In this document: in pieces, positions 5,044 through 12,416 of the stretch
How positions within the stretch are numbered: position 1 is the stretch's first letter
Layout: every line of letters begins with the position of its first letter
Origin: a virus
Taxonomy: Duplodnaviria > Heunggongvirae > Uroviricota > Caudoviricetes
DNA: 12,480 nt
Strand: one strand, 5' to 3'
IMG/VR virus record: IMGVR_UViG_2548877011_000005
Position numbers and translations under genes: made by a program
The notes under the pieces: generated by a model
What the model saw: the letters and a program-made list of their open reading frames with translations, nothing else
The model's database searches: none
What the model was told of the DNA's origin: nothing

Positions 5044-5057
5044 ATCAGCCCCCTGTG

Positions 5058-5086
5058 AAAAAAGACACGGGGGCATTTCGCCCCCG
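5058..5086 (-). terminator. Candidate intrinsic terminator or attenuating stem-loop after E: 7-bp GC stem (CGGGGGC/GCCCCCG), 5-nt loop, then UGUC and U6
   Basis: Minus-strand reading of 5086-5055 is CGGGGGCGAAATGCCCCCGTGTCTTTTTTCAC, lying between the E stop (5095-5097) and the FI start (5043). The U-tract is 4 nt from the stem, so this is not a textbook terminator. Confidence 0.35.
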
Positions 5087-5094
5087 CTCACGGA

Positions 5095-6123
5095 TTATTT
5101 CACCTGTACCACCACAAACTCATCCGGGTCCGGCAACACCATCAGCGGCGCGGACTGCGTCATGGTAAATTCACGGGCGGGATCCCCCACCGTCAGCCAG
5201 TGTTTCGGATAACGGGAAGAGGCCACCACACCTTCGGACAACGCCTGCGCATCCTGAATGGCACCGTAACAACGGATCCCATCTGCAGCAGTATTCCCCA
5301 AAACCAGCATGCCCTCCGGCAGATAACGTTTTTCGATACCGTCTTCTGCTATATAAGACGTTTTCGCCACCACAATGGCCAGATCGCCGTAATACCCCTT
5401 GAAGGACACCACTGCGCCCAGATCTTTCACTGCCGTTTCGAGTTGAGAATTTGAACCGCGACGGGTATCCAGTTTTTCGCGGAACAGCTTAAAACCATTC
5501 AGAAGACGCCAGACGGTACCGTCCATAATGGCAATATTCACAAGACCGCTGGCCTGGTCGCAGTAGAGGTCAAGATCATGTGTAGGATCGAACGTGTCAC
5601 GATCCTGTTTTGACCACTCCTTACCACTACCCTGAGTGATGTTATTCTTCGTCGACCTGCCAAAATCGACCTCAATTTTCTCGAACTGGTCTCCTTCCAT
5701 CGTATATTTGCCATACAACACAGCATTTACCGCCTGTATTTCTTCCACCTGGACAATCGCGTGCTCTTCCTGTTTGAGGTTATCGGTAATGATACGCAGA
5801 CGGCGGTAAGCCGGATCGTTCAGTTGAGCCGGATCTTCACCAGGAAGGCGCTCAACCGCCTGCTGGTAATTAAATTCGTGTTTCGGCTTGACGTAGCCCG
5901 GACGTAACACGCGGGTTTCACCACCACGATGACGCAGCACTTTTCCTTCAACAACCGGGGAGACATAGGCCGCCACCGGCGTTTTTCCGGTAATTTTGTC
6001 CAGCATCACCTCTTCGGTATGGAAATTCACCGTACGGCGGAAAAACAGCTCCAGAAACAGCGCACGAAATTTCACTTTTTGTTCGGTATAACCGAGTAAC
6101 TGGCGGGTCGTAAACAATCCCAT
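5095..6123 (-). CDS. E: Major capsid protein gpE (342 aa)
   Basis: ATG at 6123-6121 with AAAGGAA upstream. Translation MGLFTTRQLLGYTEQKVKFRALFLELFF...REFTMTQSAPLMVLPDPDEFVVVQVK resembles lambda gpE throughout, though clearly diverged. Confidence 0.95.
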   Translation of the reverse strand: MGLFTTRQLLGYTEQKVKFRALFLELFFRRTVNFHTEEVMLDKITGKTPVAAYVSPVVEGKVLRHRGGETRVLRPGYVKPKHEFNYQQAVERLPGEDPAQLNDPAYRRLRIITDNLKQEEHAIVQVEEIQAVNAVLYGKYTMEGDQFEKIEVDFGRSTKNNITQGSGKEWSKQDRDTFDPTHDLDLYCDQASGLVNIAIMDGTVWRLLNGFKLFREKLDTRRGSNSQLETAVKDLGAVVSFKGYYGDLAIVVAKTSYIAEDGIEKRYLPEGMLVLGNTAADGIRCYGAIQDAQALSEGVVASSRYPKHWLTVGDPAREFTMTQSAPLMVLPDPDEFVVVQVK

Positions 6124-6151
6124 AAATCAGTTCCTTTCATTCAGAAATCAG

Positions 6152-6173
6152 TCAGGCCACCGCGGTGGCCTGA
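6152..6173. repeat. Perfect 22-bp palindrome TCAGGCCACCGCGGTGGCCTGA in the D-E intergenic region; function unknown
   Basis: Read directly: 6152-6162 tcaggccaccg is the reverse complement of 6163-6173 cggtggcctga. It lies between the D stop (6181-6183) and the E start (6123); no adjacent U-run. Confidence 0.9.
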
Positions 6174-6180
6174 TAACGTG

Positions 6181-6528
6181 TTACGGCAGCGCCGCGTGAC
6201 TCAGGGCACTGCCGGCAAAGGCATTTGCCTTTTTGTGTTCATCCACACTTTCAGGCCAGCGGATTGCCTCCGTCGCAAAGGTCCCCGACTTGTAATAGGT
6301 CAGTACCGTCTCTGTGCCTTCAAGCGGCAGTACCAGTATGCCAACTGCACTACCGGCTTTCTGTCCGTCCCAGACCACCAGTTTCCCGCTGGCTTCATCC
6401 AGCATCAGGGGCGTCAGTGCCGGTGTTGCCGAGGAAATCCCGCTGCTGCCTGTGGCGGTATGAGCCGGATCATTACCGGCAAAAATACGTACTTCCGCAC
6501 GCTGTTCAGTGATGGTTTTCGTTACCAT
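6181..6528 (-). CDS. D: Head decoration protein gpD (115 aa)
   Basis: ATG at 6528-6526 with AGGAGG upstream (plus cctcct 6541-6546). Translation contains DPAHTATGSSG...TPLMLDEASGKLVVWDG...YYKSGTF...KANAFAG, matching lambda gpD motifs. Confidence 0.93.
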   Translation of the reverse strand: MVTKTITEQRAEVRIFAGNDPAHTATGSSGISSATPALTPLMLDEASGKLVVWDGQKAGSAVGILVLPLEGTETVLTYYKSGTFATEAIRWPESVDEHKKANAFAGSALSHAALP

Positions 6529-6564
6529 ATTGTAAAAACCTCCTGTTGATGGTCAGCACTGACT

Positions 6565-7167
6565 TCATGGCATAGCCATGAGCATTTTCACGTCCGCATC
6601 ACCGTCTGCTGACGTCTGTGGCACGCCACCCTGTACCGCTGCCGGTGAATGGTTCGCCATGATGCGTTCAAACAGGGCGGTTGTGGATGCAGAGACCGGT
6701 TCTGCCTTACCTGATCCCGCAGCCAGCACAGCCCGGGCGCTCTCCACAGTCATTCCCGGGCAGGCAGCCAGCTGTTCAGCCTGCGCCTCAGCCCCTTTTG
6801 CCTCATCCAGTGCCATGATCTGATCACGGAGTGAGGGTCCGGCATCCGCCTGCGGTGAAGCAGCCAGGATCGGGCGGGCTTTTTCCACCGTCATCTCCGG
6901 CATCGCCGCCAGCGTTGCCGCCAGTTGTTCACGACCGTTCGCTTCTTCACACGCCATAATGCGATCGGCTTCACTCTGCGTGGATGCCACCGGCTGCTGC
7001 GGTGCCGCCGCGGCCAGAATCGCCCGGGCCTGTTCAACGCTCATGCCCTGTTGTCCTGCCAGCATCGTGGCAAGCTGTTCACGTCCTTTCGCTTCCTGGC
7101 ATGTCAGGATCCCCATCACTCGCTGGTTCTCCTGCGCGGCGGCTTCCGTTGCAGTTAATTGCGGCAT
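6565..7167 (-). CDS. Nu3: Nested in-frame scaffolding protein (Nu3-like, 200 aa) from an internal start inside C
   Basis: In-frame ATG at 7167-7165 (Met302 of C) preceded by a strong Shine-Dalgarno, minus-strand CAGAGGAGGCACT ATG (plus cctcct 7172-7177). Lambda has the same arrangement: Nu3 shares frame and stop with the 3' part of C. Confidence 0.6.
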   Translation of the reverse strand: MPQLTATEAAAQENQRVMGILTCQEAKGREQLATMLAGQQGMSVEQARAILAAAAPQQPVASTQSEADRIMACEEANGREQLAATLAAMPEMTVEKARPILAASPQADAGPSLRDQIMALDEAKGAEAQAEQLAACPGMTVESARAVLAAGSGKAEPVSASTTALFERIMANHSPAAVQGGVPQTSADGDADVKMLMAMP

Positions 7168-8070: not shown

Positions 8071-9652
8071 GGGGTGTTGTCTCCTCTTCCGGCCTGCGAC
8101 TCTCCGCTATCTGCTGCTGATACGCCTGCGCTATCCACACCGGACGTGAGAGTCCGGCTTTTTGCCGCTCTGCAGATTCCCTGACCTGCTGGCGGAAAAT
8201 GTCCTGATAATCCTCGCCCATCAGCGCCAGCTCTTTCTCATACGTGCTCAGTCCGGCCTCAATGCGCATCACCGATTCCTGAACCTCCTTGAGCCCGTCA
8301 ATGGCCATTCTTCCGGCACCAATCCACTCTGCCCGTGACCAGGCTGATCGCGCCTGATAAAAATCAAAACGCGCCCGTGGCGGACGGATAATCCCCCGAA
8401 GAAGTGCCTCTTCCAGCCAGCAGGAAAACATCTGCGTGGCCAGCCGGGCCGCAATAAATTTTCGCCGCCCCATAAAATAGCGCCACGACTCATTGGCAGA
8501 GGCCCTGGCACTTGAATAACTGACCTTCGAGTAATCACGGGACAACTGTTCGTAGGAAACGCCAAGACCGGCGGCGATATACCGCAGCAGCGCCTGTTCA
8601 AGCGCCGAAAATCCATTGTCTGAATCCTGCGCAGTCTGTAGTTTCAGATCATCCCCGGGGAAAAGGTGCGGAATTTTGACACCGCCCAGCGTCACGCTAT
8701 TCGTGTCATACCAGGTGGAGAACTTATCCAGAATATTAATAAGCGGATTATCCTTCTGCCCCTGCGGCGCACCGGCGATATATTCAAAGGCCTTTTCGGT
8801 ATCAAGTTCACTTTCAATCGTCGCTGCATACATCGCCTTCACTATGGCCGACTGAAGCTGTGTTGCCTGCAGGGAATCGAGCATCTTCAGCCGTTCCATG
8901 ACGCTGTAAAACTGATTAGCCCCACGGGTCTGCCCGTCCTCCACCGGCTCGAAAATATGCAGCATGGCCGGACGCCCGGTGGGAAGTTCACGCGGGATCC
9001 GTTCCCATCGTCCACTCCCGGAGCGAGGAAAATCATCCTCACAGATATGGTACGCAACGGCACGGCCATATCGATCGACCTCCACCCCGGCCCGCAGAAA
9101 ACGGTTCCCCATACCGTGTCCTGGCGTGTCCACCCGTTTCGGACTCACGGCTTTAAAACGCGTACGGAATAACTGCGTGGTTTCCGTATCCCAGACCGGC
9201 TGCACAAAGATTTCGCCGTTAAACGCATGAACGCCCACACCTTCACGGATAAATTCCGTGAACGTGCGTTTTCCTTCCACGTCGATCTCGCCAGACATCC
9301 CTTCTGCGTATTCTGACCAGGCCGCCTCCACCTCATCGACAAAACTTTTTGCCGCGGTCTCCCGCATCCCCAGCCAGCGCCAGTTCGGACGGTAGCTAAT
9401 CAGAAACATATGCCCGACAATGTGATCCTTATGCAGGGCCACCGCATTGGCCGCTATTCCGTTATTGCGCACCAGATCATCTGCACGGGCATTCCCCAGA
9501 CGCAACGCGGGCAGCAGGGCCGCATCGGCACTCTGCGCCGGTGGCAACCACTCTGCCATTTGCCCGCCAAATCCTGCACCGCCACCGTTGTAGCTGAGGC
9601 TCTCCCGAAGCGGAACGCCGTTCACATCAATCAGGACAGGCGTTCGTTTCAT
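8060..9652 (-). CDS. B: Portal protein gpB (530 aa)
   Basis: ATG at 9652-9650 overlaps the W stop (9651-9649) as ATGA. Size and position (between W and C) match lambda gpB; translation MKRTPVLIDVNGVPLRESLSYNGGGAGFGGQMAEW... is portal-like. Confidence 0.95.
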   Translation of the reverse strand: MKRTPVLIDVNGVPLRESLSYNGGGAGFGGQMAEWLPPAQSADAALLPALRLGNARADDLVRNNGIAANAVALHKDHIVGHMFLISYRPNWRWLGMRETAAKSFVDEVEAAWSEYAEGMSGEIDVEGKRTFTEFIREGVGVHAFNGEIFVQPVWDTETTQLFRTRFKAVSPKRVDTPGHGMGNRFLRAGVEVDRYGRAVAYHICEDDFPRSGSGRWERIPRELPTGRPAMLHIFEPVEDGQTRGANQFYSVMERLKMLDSLQATQLQSAIVKAMYAATIESELDTEKAFEYIAGAPQGQKDNPLINILDKFSTWYDTNSVTLGGVKIPHLFPGDDLKLQTAQDSDNGFSALEQALLRYIAAGLGVSYEQLSRDYSKVSYSSARASANESWRYFMGRRKFIAARLATQMFSCWLEEALLRGIIRPPRARFDFYQARSAWSRAEWIGAGRMAIDGLKEVQESVMRIEAGLSTYEKELALMGEDYQDIFRQQVRESAERQKAGLSRPVWIAQAYQQQIAESRRPEEETTPRET

Positions 9653-12287: not shown

Positions 12288-12315
12288 GAAAACAACCCAT
12301 TATCAAATACAAGGC

Positions 12316-12326
12316 CCGACATGAAA
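12316..12326 (-). promoter_or_regulatory. Candidate terminase small-subunit binding repeat, R1-like position (ccgacatgaaa)
   Basis: Forms an 11-bp perfect inverted repeat with 12354-12364; about 151-161 nt from the cohesive end (lambda R1 is ~150-165 as I recall). Confidence 0.45.
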
Positions 12327-12353
12327 ACGCCAGAAAAAGGCATTTTCGGACAC

Positions 12354-12364
12354 TTTCATGTCGG
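12354..12364 (+). promoter_or_regulatory. Candidate terminase small-subunit binding repeat, R2-like position, inverted (tttcatgtcgg)
   Basis: Exact reverse complement of 12316-12326; about 113-123 nt from the cohesive end. Confidence 0.45.
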
Positions 12365-12416
12365 ACCTTTACGGATGCAATATTAAAGAAAAACAAAAAG
12401 TTATATTCGAGAAGTA

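What the first reader, a model, noticed from the sequence alone, without database searches (positions are those of the whole stretch)
6124..6180. Perfect 22-bp palindrome between decoration gene D and capsid gene E
TCAGGCCACCGCGGTGGCCTGA is a perfect palindrome about 30 nt upstream of the E start, far longer than expected by chance in a 57-bp spacer. As RNA it would form a 9-11 bp GC-rich hairpin with no following U-tract. It could be an mRNA stability or processing element, a translational modulator setting the D:E ratio, or a binding site for a dimeric protein.
Basis: seen in the sequence. Interest (0 to 1): 0.45.

Follow-up and report, generated by a model that had tools for sequence, protein, structure and literature searches.

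The report
Terminator-derived hairpin between phage head genes
The perfect 22-bp palindrome is real, and it is phage 21's version of an RNA stem-loop that nearly all lambda-like phages keep between their head-decoration and major-capsid genes; elsewhere that stem-loop is an ordinary transcription terminator, but here it has lost its run of U's, so it is a known kind of element whose function is still untested.

Summary
TCAGGCCACCGCGGTGGCCTGA lies at 6152-6173, 7 nt after the shp (lambda D homologue) stop and 28 nt before the gene 7 (lambda E homologue) ATG. The window is a phage-21-type late operon on the minus strand, 98% identical to phage 21. The palindrome is non-random: 2 of 2000 simulated windows contain one as long, and 0 of 500 spacer shuffles fold as well.

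It is not unique. Of 72 distinct D-E spacers from lambda-like head modules (D identity 47-100%), 70 carry a GC-rich hairpin at this position. Stem sequences differ between clades, changes are compensatory, loops vary freely and G.U pairs favour the sense strand. In 55 of 60 distinct spacers outside the 21 clade, the hairpin plus T-tract scores as an intrinsic terminator. All ten 21-clade alleles fail that score because the U-tract is broken.

Within the 21 clade only the basal 5 bp are invariant. The upper stem and loop drift, and 26% of locus hits carry imperfect palindromes, so perfection is not the selected feature.

My reading is a terminator-derived intercistronic RNA hairpin, read through by Q-loaded polymerase. 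It most likely acts as a 3'-exonuclease barrier and structural insulator, and at best as a weak terminator. Function is inferred, not shown. It is a new member of a known kind, of modest interest.

The parts
6152..6173 (-). Perfect 22-bp palindrome. In the late mRNA it forms a 9-bp stem (UCAGGCCAC/GUGGCCUGA) with a 4-nt loop (CGCG).
6147..6177 (-). Extended predicted helix (GUUA...UGAU adds 4 pairs, 2 of them G.U, across a 1-nt bulge). It consumes part of the U-rich tail.
   Evidence: Prediction only.
6181..6528 (-). shp gene (head decoration protein, lambda D homologue). The TAA stop lies at 6181-6183, 7 nt upstream of the hairpin.
6124..6151 (-). 28-nt AU-rich leader of gene 7, with the Shine-Dalgarno AAAGGAA at 6131-6137 and two CTGATTT copies. 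Only 1 of 28 sites segregates among 47 haplotypes.
5095..6123 (-). Gene 7 (major capsid protein, lambda E homologue).
5057..5087 (-). Companion stem-loop immediately after the gene 7 stop (GCGGGGGCGAAAUGCCCCCGU followed by GUCUUUUUUC). It has canonical terminator shape. With the palindrome it brackets the capsid gene.
   Evidence: A hairpin at this position is present in all clades examined.

Best explanation
The palindrome is the phage-21-lineage allele of a sense-strand RNA stem-loop. That stem-loop is conserved between the head-decoration gene and the major-capsid gene of lambda-like head modules. In most lineages it is a canonical intrinsic terminator: a GC stem followed by six to eight T's. 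In the 21 lineage the stem has been lengthened into a perfect palindrome and the U-tract interrupted, so it is a terminator-derived intercistronic hairpin that no longer looks like an efficient terminator.

Proposed mechanism. During lytic growth the late operon is transcribed from pR' by Q21-loaded RNA polymerase, which does not respond to terminator hairpins, so transcription continues into gene 7. The hairpin then folds in the polycistronic mRNA, 7 nt past the shp stop and so mostly out of reach of terminating ribosomes.

There it most likely does two things. It blocks 3'->5' exonucleases, prolonging the life of the shp-containing segment once the message is cut downstream. It also insulates the strongly conserved, unstructured AU-rich leader of gene 7 from pairing with upstream coding RNA. 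Together with the terminator-like hairpin just after gene 7, it brackets the two most abundantly needed head genes. Any termination of unmodified polymerase here is expected to be weak.

Shown: existence, non-randomness, positional conservation, covariation, sense-strand bias, a degenerate U-tract, and selection confined to the basal stem. Inferred: every functional step.
For: The window is 98% identical to the phage 21 head operon. The curated phage 21 genome places these genes in the Q-dependent late operon.

Hairpins occur at the same place in lambda (AAAGGCCGCcuguGCGGCUUUUUUU) and in Gifsy-1 (AAGGCCGCgaaGCGGCCUU).

Across 269 loci there are 72 distinct D-E spacers, and 70 carry a strong hairpin despite at least 8 different stem sequences.

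On centre-anchored alignments 94.2% and 96.5% of cells are paired, against 31-57% when the 3' partners are slid. Five of 9 and 4 of 9 pairs show changes on both sides. One pair occurs as U.G, G.U and U-A.

The best sense-strand hairpins contain 78 G.U pairs against 33 on the antisense strand. The sense hairpin is more stable in 46 distinct spacers and the antisense in 15.

A terminator discriminant is positive in 55 of 60 distinct spacers outside the 21 clade and negative in all 10 alleles of the 21 clade.

The 21 spacer resembles an L313-type terminator hairpin (ATCAGGCC...GGCCTG) joined to an L370-type E leader (TTTCTGAATnAAAGGAAC).

Within the 21 clade the basal 5 bp show 0 of 10 segregating sites, while 39-58% of four-fold sites segregate. 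The 28-nt leader shows 1 of 28.

A second conserved hairpin follows the capsid gene.

Q proteins form a nozzle on the RNA-exit channel that precludes terminator hairpin formation (abstracts of PMC9388147 and bioRxiv 10.1101/651190).

Intra-late-operon terminators are recognised in lambdoid phages, with roles stated to be unknown (PMC8022706).
Against: No transcript, half-life or translation data were available, so the function is inference.

The U-tract is conserved in almost every other clade. That argues the ancestral selected function is termination rather than stabilisation, in which case the 21 allele could be a crippled or decaying version.

In the 21 clade the upper four stem pairs evolve at about the neutral rate (5 of 8 sites segregate). 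Three alleles carry sense-strand C.A or A.C mismatches that would be G.U on the antisense strand. So within this clade there is no sense-strand signal and only the stem base is constrained.

The invariance of the stem base could be a by-product of constraint on the adjoining gene 7 leader.

The clade is young (at least 92% identity), so persistence of the hairpin is weak evidence of selection.

The covariation alignments were anchored on the predicted hairpin centre and so lean towards the structure.
Confidence: 0.55

Rival explanations
1. It is still a working, if weak, intrinsic terminator or insulator. It stops RNA polymerase that has not been modified by Q (spurious initiation inside the prophage, or read-in) before it reaches the capsid gene, and it is ignored by Q-loaded polymerase during lytic growth.
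For: The homologous position is a canonical terminator in 55 of 60 distinct spacers outside the 21 clade, with conserved T-tracts of 5-8 T in 9 nt. The lenient scan flags the 21 element as terminator-like, with 5 T in an 8-nt window. A second, canonical terminator follows gene 7. Casjens and colleagues propose exactly this role for intra-late-operon terminators (PMC8022706). A terminator acting as an insulator against premature expression has been described for Tn916 (PMC11658703 abstract).
Against: All ten 21-clade alleles score negative on the terminator discriminant (-16 to -56). The first four nucleotides after the stem are CUGA. The predicted extended helix consumes part of the U-rich stretch. 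The curated phage 21 annotation marks other late-operon terminators but none here.
Confidence: 0.22
2. It is a translational element for gene 7. It sets the D:E ratio by organising the ribosome-binding region, for example as a standby-site or insulator hairpin, or by uncoupling gene 7 initiation from shp termination.
For: The hairpin ends 28 nt before the ATG and abuts a leader in which 27 of 28 positions are invariant among 47 haplotypes. The distance from hairpin to ATG is similar, about 20-32 nt, in the nearest clades. In lambda-type spacers a predicted outer helix pairs sequence 5' of the hairpin with the SD region.
Against: No pairing between the hairpin and the SD or ATG is predicted in the 21 type. 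The hairpin-to-ATG distance and the leader sequence differ widely between clades. The T-tract conservation elsewhere is not explained by a translational role.
Confidence: 0.12
3. It is a non-functional relic. A former terminator lost its U-tract, perhaps at a mosaic recombination junction. Its perfect symmetry reflects recent origin or palindrome-templated (template-switch) mutation rather than selection.
For: The upper stem and loop evolve at or above the four-fold-site rate. 52 of 201 locus hits carry imperfect palindromes, some destabilised to -6.8 kcal/mol. The 21 spacer looks like a junction of an L313-type hairpin and an L370-type leader. The clade is shallow.
Against: The basal 5 bp show 0 of 10 segregating sites against 39-58% at four-fold sites (about 0.007 if sites were independent). 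The stem is longer and more stable than in any terminator-bearing relative (-17.8 against about -12 to -17 kcal/mol). That is not what decay predicts.
Confidence: 0.08
4. It acts at the DNA level, as a binding or cleavage site for a dimeric protein, or as a cruciform.
For: Dyad symmetry is perfect in 149 of 201 locus hits. The second commonest allele (CCATGG centre) changes the two central bases symmetrically, even though they cannot pair in a hairpin.
Against: The CATG allele follows D-gene haplotype clusters, so it is probably one event. Asymmetric alleles are common. No other copy within 2 mismatches exists in the phage 21 genome, and the one near-copy in this window lies in the portal gene and is absent from phage 21. 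Relatives keep a hairpin but not the sequence or the perfect symmetry, and they use G.U pairs that are mismatches in duplex DNA terms. From general knowledge, 22 bp with a GC-rich centre is short for cruciform extrusion.
Confidence: 0.03

Closest known systems
The stem-loop plus T7 tract in phage lambda's D-E spacer (AAAGGCCGCCTGTGCGGCTTTTTTT, NC_001416 about 6097-6121), with its equivalents in Gifsy-1 and other enterobacterial lambda-like prophages
   Same: Same position, between the decoration-gene stop and the capsid-gene start. Same strand. GC-rich 8-9 bp stem sharing the AGGCC...GGCCU base. The stem is linked to the others by compensatory changes.
   Different: Lambda and most relatives have an uninterrupted T6-T8 tract and pass a terminator discriminant. 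The 21 allele has a longer perfect palindrome, an A-U pair where the others have G-C, and a broken U-tract, and it fails the discriminant.
Intra-operon intrinsic terminators of lambdoid/P22-like late operons (discussed for phage L, PMC8022706)
   Same: A terminator-type hairpin lying inside a single-promoter, antiterminated late operon, at the edge of the procapsid gene module. Its role is acknowledged as unknown.
   Different: Those were predicted as full terminators. This one lacks the U-tract. The head modules involved are also different (P22-like against lambda-like).
Intercistronic mRNA 'decay terminator' or stabiliser hairpins, such as the Rhodobacter puf operon stem-loop and the REP elements in malE-malF (from my own knowledge: Chen et al. 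1988 Cell; Newbury et al. 1987 Cell)
   Same: A stable stem-loop without a U-tract, between cistrons of a polycistronic mRNA, placed just downstream of a gene whose product is needed in large amounts.
   Different: No half-life or 3'-end data exist here. It is not a repeated element: no REP-like copies were found and there was no Rfam match.

Membership tests
Rho-independent (intrinsic) transcription terminator | GC-rich stem (about 5-14 bp) with a 3-8 nt loop on the transcribed strand | tested here: met
   9-bp stem with 6 G-C pairs and a 4-nt loop on the sense (minus) strand.
Rho-independent (intrinsic) transcription terminator | U-rich tract immediately 3' of the stem | tested here: not met
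   The tail is CUGAUUUCUG, with 4 T in the 9 nt after the last G-C pair, against 5-8 in nearly all other clades. A d'Aubenton-Carafa-type score (formula recalled from memory, computed with ViennaRNA energies, so relative only) is -20.9 here and negative in all 10 alleles of the 21 clade, but positive in 55 of 60 other distinct spacers. A lenient scan gives a borderline pass.
Rho-independent (intrinsic) transcription terminator | Located downstream of a stop codon, in an intergenic spacer | tested here: met
   It starts 7 nt after the shp TAA.
Rho-independent (intrinsic) transcription terminator | Releases transcripts in vitro or in vivo | not testable with these tools
   No transcript-end data were available. 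The curated phage 21 record annotates no terminator here.
Conserved D-E intergenic stem-loop of lambda-like head modules | Hairpin at the homologous position, on the sense strand, between the decoration and major-capsid genes | tested here: met
   70 of 72 distinct spacers from 269 loci carry one. The flanks are alignable with Gifsy-1 and the L313/L370 types.
Conserved D-E intergenic stem-loop of lambda-like head modules | Pairing maintained through compensatory substitutions | tested here: met
   94-96.5% of cells are paired against 31-57% in slid controls. Five of 9 and 4 of 9 pairs show double changes. In 0 of 500 shuffles did the covariation score reach the observed value. Caveat: the alignments were anchored on the predicted hairpin centre.
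Intercistronic mRNA stabiliser (3'-exonuclease barrier) hairpin | Stable stem-loop in an untranslated intercistronic stretch of a polycistronic mRNA | tested here: met
   -17.8 kcal/mol, with 0 of 500 spacer shuffles as stable. It lies between cistrons of the late operon.
Intercistronic mRNA stabiliser (3'-exonuclease barrier) hairpin | The upstream RNA segment accumulates or decays more slowly in a hairpin-dependent way | not testable with these tools
   This needs 3'-end mapping and half-life measurements.
RNase III processing site | About two helical turns (around 20 bp) of double-stranded RNA | tested here: not met
   Only 9 bp, or 13 bp with a bulge and two G.U pairs.
Palindromic operator for a dimeric DNA-binding protein | Dyad symmetry conserved as such, usually with further copies in the genome | tested here: not met
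   52 of 201 locus hits are asymmetric. There is no second copy within 2 mismatches in phage 21. Relatives conserve the pairing, not the sequence.
Any curated Rfam RNA family | Match to a covariance model | tested here: not met
   No match up to E = 10 in 5500-6800 on either strand.

The most novel reading that the evidence does not exclude
The hairpins that bracket the major-capsid gene, one between D and E and one after E, form a conserved functional module in their own right. Phage 21 would then be a natural separation-of-function allele, with the hairpin kept and strengthened and the U-tract lost. That would show that the selected activity is post-transcriptional (segmental stabilisation of mRNA, or setting the D:E output) rather than termination. 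The more radical alternative is that the perfect dyad is read on DNA by a dimeric protein; this is not strictly excluded, but I put it at about 3%.
Probability: 0.25. Interest if true: 0.45.

Novelty: new member of a known kind. Interest (0 to 1): 0.25.

Why it matters
Terminator-type hairpins inside antiterminated phage late operons are widespread, and their roles are openly described as unknown (PMC8022706). This survey shows that the D-E hairpin is conserved with covariation across lambda-like head modules, and that phage 21 carries a version with a stronger stem but no U-tract. This variant allows termination to be tested separately from RNA-level functions such as stability and translation. 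Lambda/21 hybrid phages and Q21/Q-lambda biochemistry already exist for that test. Apart from that test, the element is an ordinary intercistronic stem-loop. The sequence has been public since the 1993 phage 21 head-operon record.

Tried and rejected
Rfam scan of 5500-6800 at E <= 10 on both strands: no match.

Global MFE of the 101-nt region: not exceptional (z = -1.48). I therefore used local hairpin statistics instead.

Search for further copies of the palindrome core, allowing up to 3 mismatches. There was one 2-mismatch near-copy in the portal gene of this window (9437-9452). It is absent from phage 21, which has only two 3-mismatch hits, inside genes H and K. I judged these to be chance and not a regulon.

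A symmetric CGCG->CATG change in the palindrome centre initially looked like evidence for DNA-level symmetry. The alleles follow D-gene haplotype clusters, so a single event suffices.

Sense-versus-antisense test inside the 21 clade: uninformative or slightly contrary, since three alleles have sense mismatches that would be antisense G.U pairs. The sense-strand signal comes only from the other clades.

RNase III site: rejected because the helix is too short.

MAFFT alignments of all hairpins (A3, A4) shifted some clades by sequence rather than by structure. I re-aligned gap-free subsets (A5, A6) for pair counting.

Literature. Ten searches found no paper dealing with the D-E or shp-7 hairpin, and searching for the sequences themselves as text also found none. 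Liu et al. 2013 (ribosome profiling of lambda) is not in the library.

I did not use the protein-structure or deep-homology tools, because the element is non-coding and the flanking genes are unambiguous.

Full report
**1. What is in the sequence**

The window is a lambdoid late (head and tail) operon read on the minus strand. The stretch 5095-6600 is 98% identical to the phage 21 head operon (M81255) and to several Escherichia phages. In M81255 and in the curated complete phage 21 genome (OL657228), the two ORFs around the finding have these names:
- 6181-6528 (-) is shp, the head-decoration protein and lambda D homologue.
- 5095-6123 (-) is gene 7, the major capsid protein and lambda E homologue.

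The 57-nt spacer, read 5'->3' on the sense strand, is CACGTTA-TCAGGCCACCGCGGTGGCCTGA-CTGATTTCTGAATGAAAGGAACTGATTT-ATG. The perfect 22-bp palindrome occupies 6152-6173, starting 7 nt after the shp TAA and ending 28 nt before the gene 7 ATG.

It is the longest perfect palindrome in the window; the next longest is 14 bp. Only 2 of 2000 first-order Markov simulations of the whole window produced one as long.

As RNA it folds into a 9-bp stem with a 4-nt loop. Four extra pairs across a bulge extend it, giving -17.8 kcal/mol. None of 500 dinucleotide shuffles of the spacer reached this value, and the same holds with DNA parameters (0 of 200). The MFE of the wider 101-nt region is unremarkable (z = -1.48).

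**2. It is one allele of a conserved element**

Lambda has a different hairpin at the same place, AAAGGCCGC-cugu-GCGGCUUUUUUU, which has a classical terminator shape. Gifsy-1 has AAGGCCGC-gaa-GCGGCCUU.

I collected loci encoding D homologues from one-genome-per-species contigs and from IMG/VR. I then located the D stop and the E start in each by tblastn. That gave 269 loci with the order D then E, and 72 distinct spacers, with D identity to the window of 47-100%.

Seventy of the 72 carry a strong GC-rich stem-loop (-7 to -23 kcal/mol). The two exceptions are:
- a 26-nt spacer type (3 loci);
- a record (CP025907.1) with a 1-nt deletion that shifts the shp frame.

Stem sequences differ between clades. 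The main types are:
- 21 type: UCAGGCCAC;
- L369 type: AAACGGGUCGC;
- L313 type: CAGGCCGC;
- lambda type: AAAGGCCGC;
- L331 type: AACCGCGCC;
- L361 type: AGGCUGCC.

Loops vary freely.

I counted pairs on two gap-free alignments anchored on the hairpin centre (A5, 21 sequences; A6, 16 sequences):
- 94.2% and 96.5% of cells form standard pairs, against 31-57% when the 3' partners are slid.
- 5 of 9 and 4 of 9 pairs show changes on both sides.
- No shuffle out of 500 reached the observed covariation score.
- One pair appears as U.G, G.U and U-A. All three pair in sense RNA; two of them would be A.C mismatches on the other strand.

Across all distinct spacers the best sense hairpins hold 78 G.U pairs against 33 for the antisense. 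The sense hairpin is the more stable in 46 cases and the antisense in 15.

Two caveats apply. The alignments were anchored on predicted hairpins, so they lean towards the structure. The spacers are also phylogenetically related, so they are not independent.

**3. Elsewhere it is a terminator; in phage 21 it is not quite**

In nearly all other clades the stem is followed at once by a T-tract, with 5-8 T in the 9 nt after the last G-C pair.

I applied a d'Aubenton-Carafa-type discriminant. I recalled the formula from memory and computed it with modern energies, so it is only a relative measure. It is positive in 55 of 60 distinct spacers outside the 21 clade. It is negative in all ten alleles of the 21 clade (-16 to -56; -20.9 for the window).

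The 21 tail is CUGAUUUCUG, and the predicted helix extension pairs away part of it. A lenient consensus scan does flag the site, so weak termination cannot be excluded.

The spacer compares as follows:
- The 5' side (ATCAGGCC...GGCCTG) resembles the L313-type terminator.
- The 3' side (TTTCTGAATnAAAGGAAC...ATTTATGGGA) resembles the leader of an L370-type locus. That locus has an E gene 94% identical to the window's and a full T-tract.

The 21 arrangement may therefore be a recombinant junction that cut the T-tract. This is inference.

**4. What selection sees inside the 21 clade**

Among 201 21-type locus hits (some contigs are counted twice), the alleles are:
- the perfect CGCG-centred palindrome, 111;
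- a second perfect palindrome with a CATG centre, 38;
- imperfect variants, 52, changed at palindrome positions 6, 10, 14, 15 or 17.

Among 47 distinct shp-spacer-gene 7 haplotypes, the proportion of segregating sites is:

| Site class | Segregating sites |
|---|---|
| Four-fold degenerate sites | 39-58% |
| Basal 5 bp of the stem | 0 of 10 |
| Upper four pairs | 5 of 8 |
| Loop | 3 of 4 |
| 28-nt leader of gene 7 | 1 of 28 |

So a hairpin base is conserved, along with the translation-initiation region next to it. The perfection of the 22-bp palindrome is not.

The symmetric CGCG->CATG change follows D-gene haplotype clusters and needs only one event. Within this clade the stem variants give no sense-strand signal: several are sense mismatches that would be antisense G.U pairs.

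**5. Context**

In the head operon almost all genes overlap or abut. The only sizeable spacers are C-shp (36 nt), shp-7 (57 nt) and 7-ORF1 (about 51 nt).

The last of these carries a canonical terminator-shaped hairpin at 5067-5087 followed by T6. A hairpin after E is again present in every clade; lambda has GGCCC-UUCG-GGGCC. The two most abundantly required head genes are thus each followed by a stable stem-loop, and the capsid gene is bracketed by two.

The curated phage 21 genome annotates late-operon terminators between I and J and after J, but nothing in the shp-7 spacer. M81255 also annotates nothing there. Rfam has no match.

**6. Mechanism**

Established knowledge is as follows. The late operon of phage 21 is transcribed from pR' by RNAP carrying Q21 (annotation). 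Q proteins form a nozzle on the RNA-exit channel that prevents terminator hairpins from acting (abstracts of PMC9388147 and bioRxiv 10.1101/651190). Lytic transcription should therefore pass the element, whatever its terminator strength. The hairpin then exists in the mRNA.

My best-supported reading (confidence 0.55 for the whole statement, about 0.8 for the structural and evolutionary part) is a terminator-derived intercistronic RNA hairpin. I infer two roles for it:
- a 3'-exonuclease barrier for the shp-proximal RNA;
- an insulator that keeps the conserved AU-rich gene 7 leader unpaired.

The rivals, with my confidence in each, are:
- a weak but working terminator or insulator against non-antiterminated transcription (0.22). 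This is well supported for the family but poorly for this allele;
- a translational element for gene 7 (0.12);
- a non-functional relic (0.08);
- a DNA-level site (0.03).

The literature I could reach states that intra-late-operon terminators are common and that 'their roles are not known'. It offers partial termination, or blocking of spurious transcription, as possibilities (PMC8022706).

**7. Comparison, novelty and verdict**

The closest known things are:
- the lambda D-E stem-loop and its relatives, of which this is a positional and partly a sequence homologue;
- intra-operon terminators of lambdoid late operons;
- intercistronic stabiliser hairpins of the puf or REP type (my own knowledge).

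It meets the stem, loop, position and homology criteria of an intrinsic terminator. It fails the U-tract criterion, so I do not file it as a terminator. I file it as a member of the conserved D-E stem-loop family, with a degenerate tail.

It is a new member of a known kind. The sequence has been public for decades, apparently without annotation. Interest is modest (0.25). Its main value is as a variant that allows termination and RNA-level roles to be tested separately in conserved late-operon hairpins.

Noticed in passing
window 5057-5087 (-): A canonical terminator-shaped hairpin (GCGGGGGCGAAAUGCCCCCGU followed by GUCUUUUUUC) lies immediately after the gene 7/E stop. A hairpin at this position is present in every clade examined; lambda has the C(UUCG)G tetraloop hairpin GGCCC-UUCG-GGGCC with a poor U-tract. 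The quality of the U-tract is therefore swapped between the two sites in lambda and in 21.
   Followed up: partly
window 6124-6151 (-): The 28-nt leader of gene 7 is invariant at 27 of 28 positions among 47 haplotypes, although 39-58% of four-fold sites segregate. It contains CTGATTT twice (6145-6151 and 6124-6130), flanking the SD AAAGGAA.
   Followed up: partly
L002 (lambda) 581-635, and loci L012-L016, L041-L044, L321-L331, L326: In lambda-type D-E spacers the predicted fold adds an outer helix. It pairs CCC, UCC or CCUU(C) upstream of the terminator hairpin with the GGG(A) or GAGG Shine-Dalgarno region of E. This recurs with different sequences in several clades and may represent SD sequestration.
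   Followed up: no
window 12311-12369: A 27-nt inverted repeat, 81% complementary. By coordinate mapping to OL657228 it corresponds to the oppositely oriented terminase-binding sites cosB R2 and R1, so the window starts at about cos.
   Followed up: partly
loci L017-L036, L038, L045, L047, L050, L052: Lambda D-E DNA that is identical or nearly identical to lambda sits on short, often low-coverage contigs of unrelated genome assemblies (Paenibacillus, Bradyrhizobium, Kitasatospora, Akkermansia and others). This is almost certainly lambda DNA contamination in those assemblies.
   Followed up: no
L004 (CP025907.1, phage 204576), aligned to window 6181-6190: A 1-nt deletion near the 3' end of shp shifts the frame, so the ORF runs through the hairpin to a TGA in the gene 7 leader. 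This is either a sequencing error or a real C-terminal variant.
   Followed up: no
window 5880-6124 (query positions 786-1030): Aeromonas phage AP1 (MT713136.1, 254 kb) carries 245 nt that are 98.8% identical to the 5' part of gene 7, in an unannotated stretch near its end. This is odd for a jumbo Aeromonas phage and may be an assembly chimera.
   Followed up: no
L051 (Cedecea sp. S5-13): A distant head module (D 39%, E 41% identity) has the reverse order, E then D, with no spacer and no hairpin between the two genes.
   Followed up: partly
window 9437-9452: GGCCACCGCATTGGCC is a 2-mismatch near-copy of the palindrome core inside the portal gene. It is not present in phage 21 itself, so I judged it to be chance.
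   Followed up: yes
window about 6706-7100 (-): M81255 annotates three 'Tri box' repeats of about 110 nt inside the scaffold gene (gene 6) as 'function unknown'.
   Followed up: no
window 6529-6556 (-): A sigma-70-like match (CTGACC, 16-nt spacing, TACAAT; 9 of 12) lies in the 36-nt C-shp spacer. The number of such matches in the region is at chance level (1 found, 1.5 expected).
   Followed up: no
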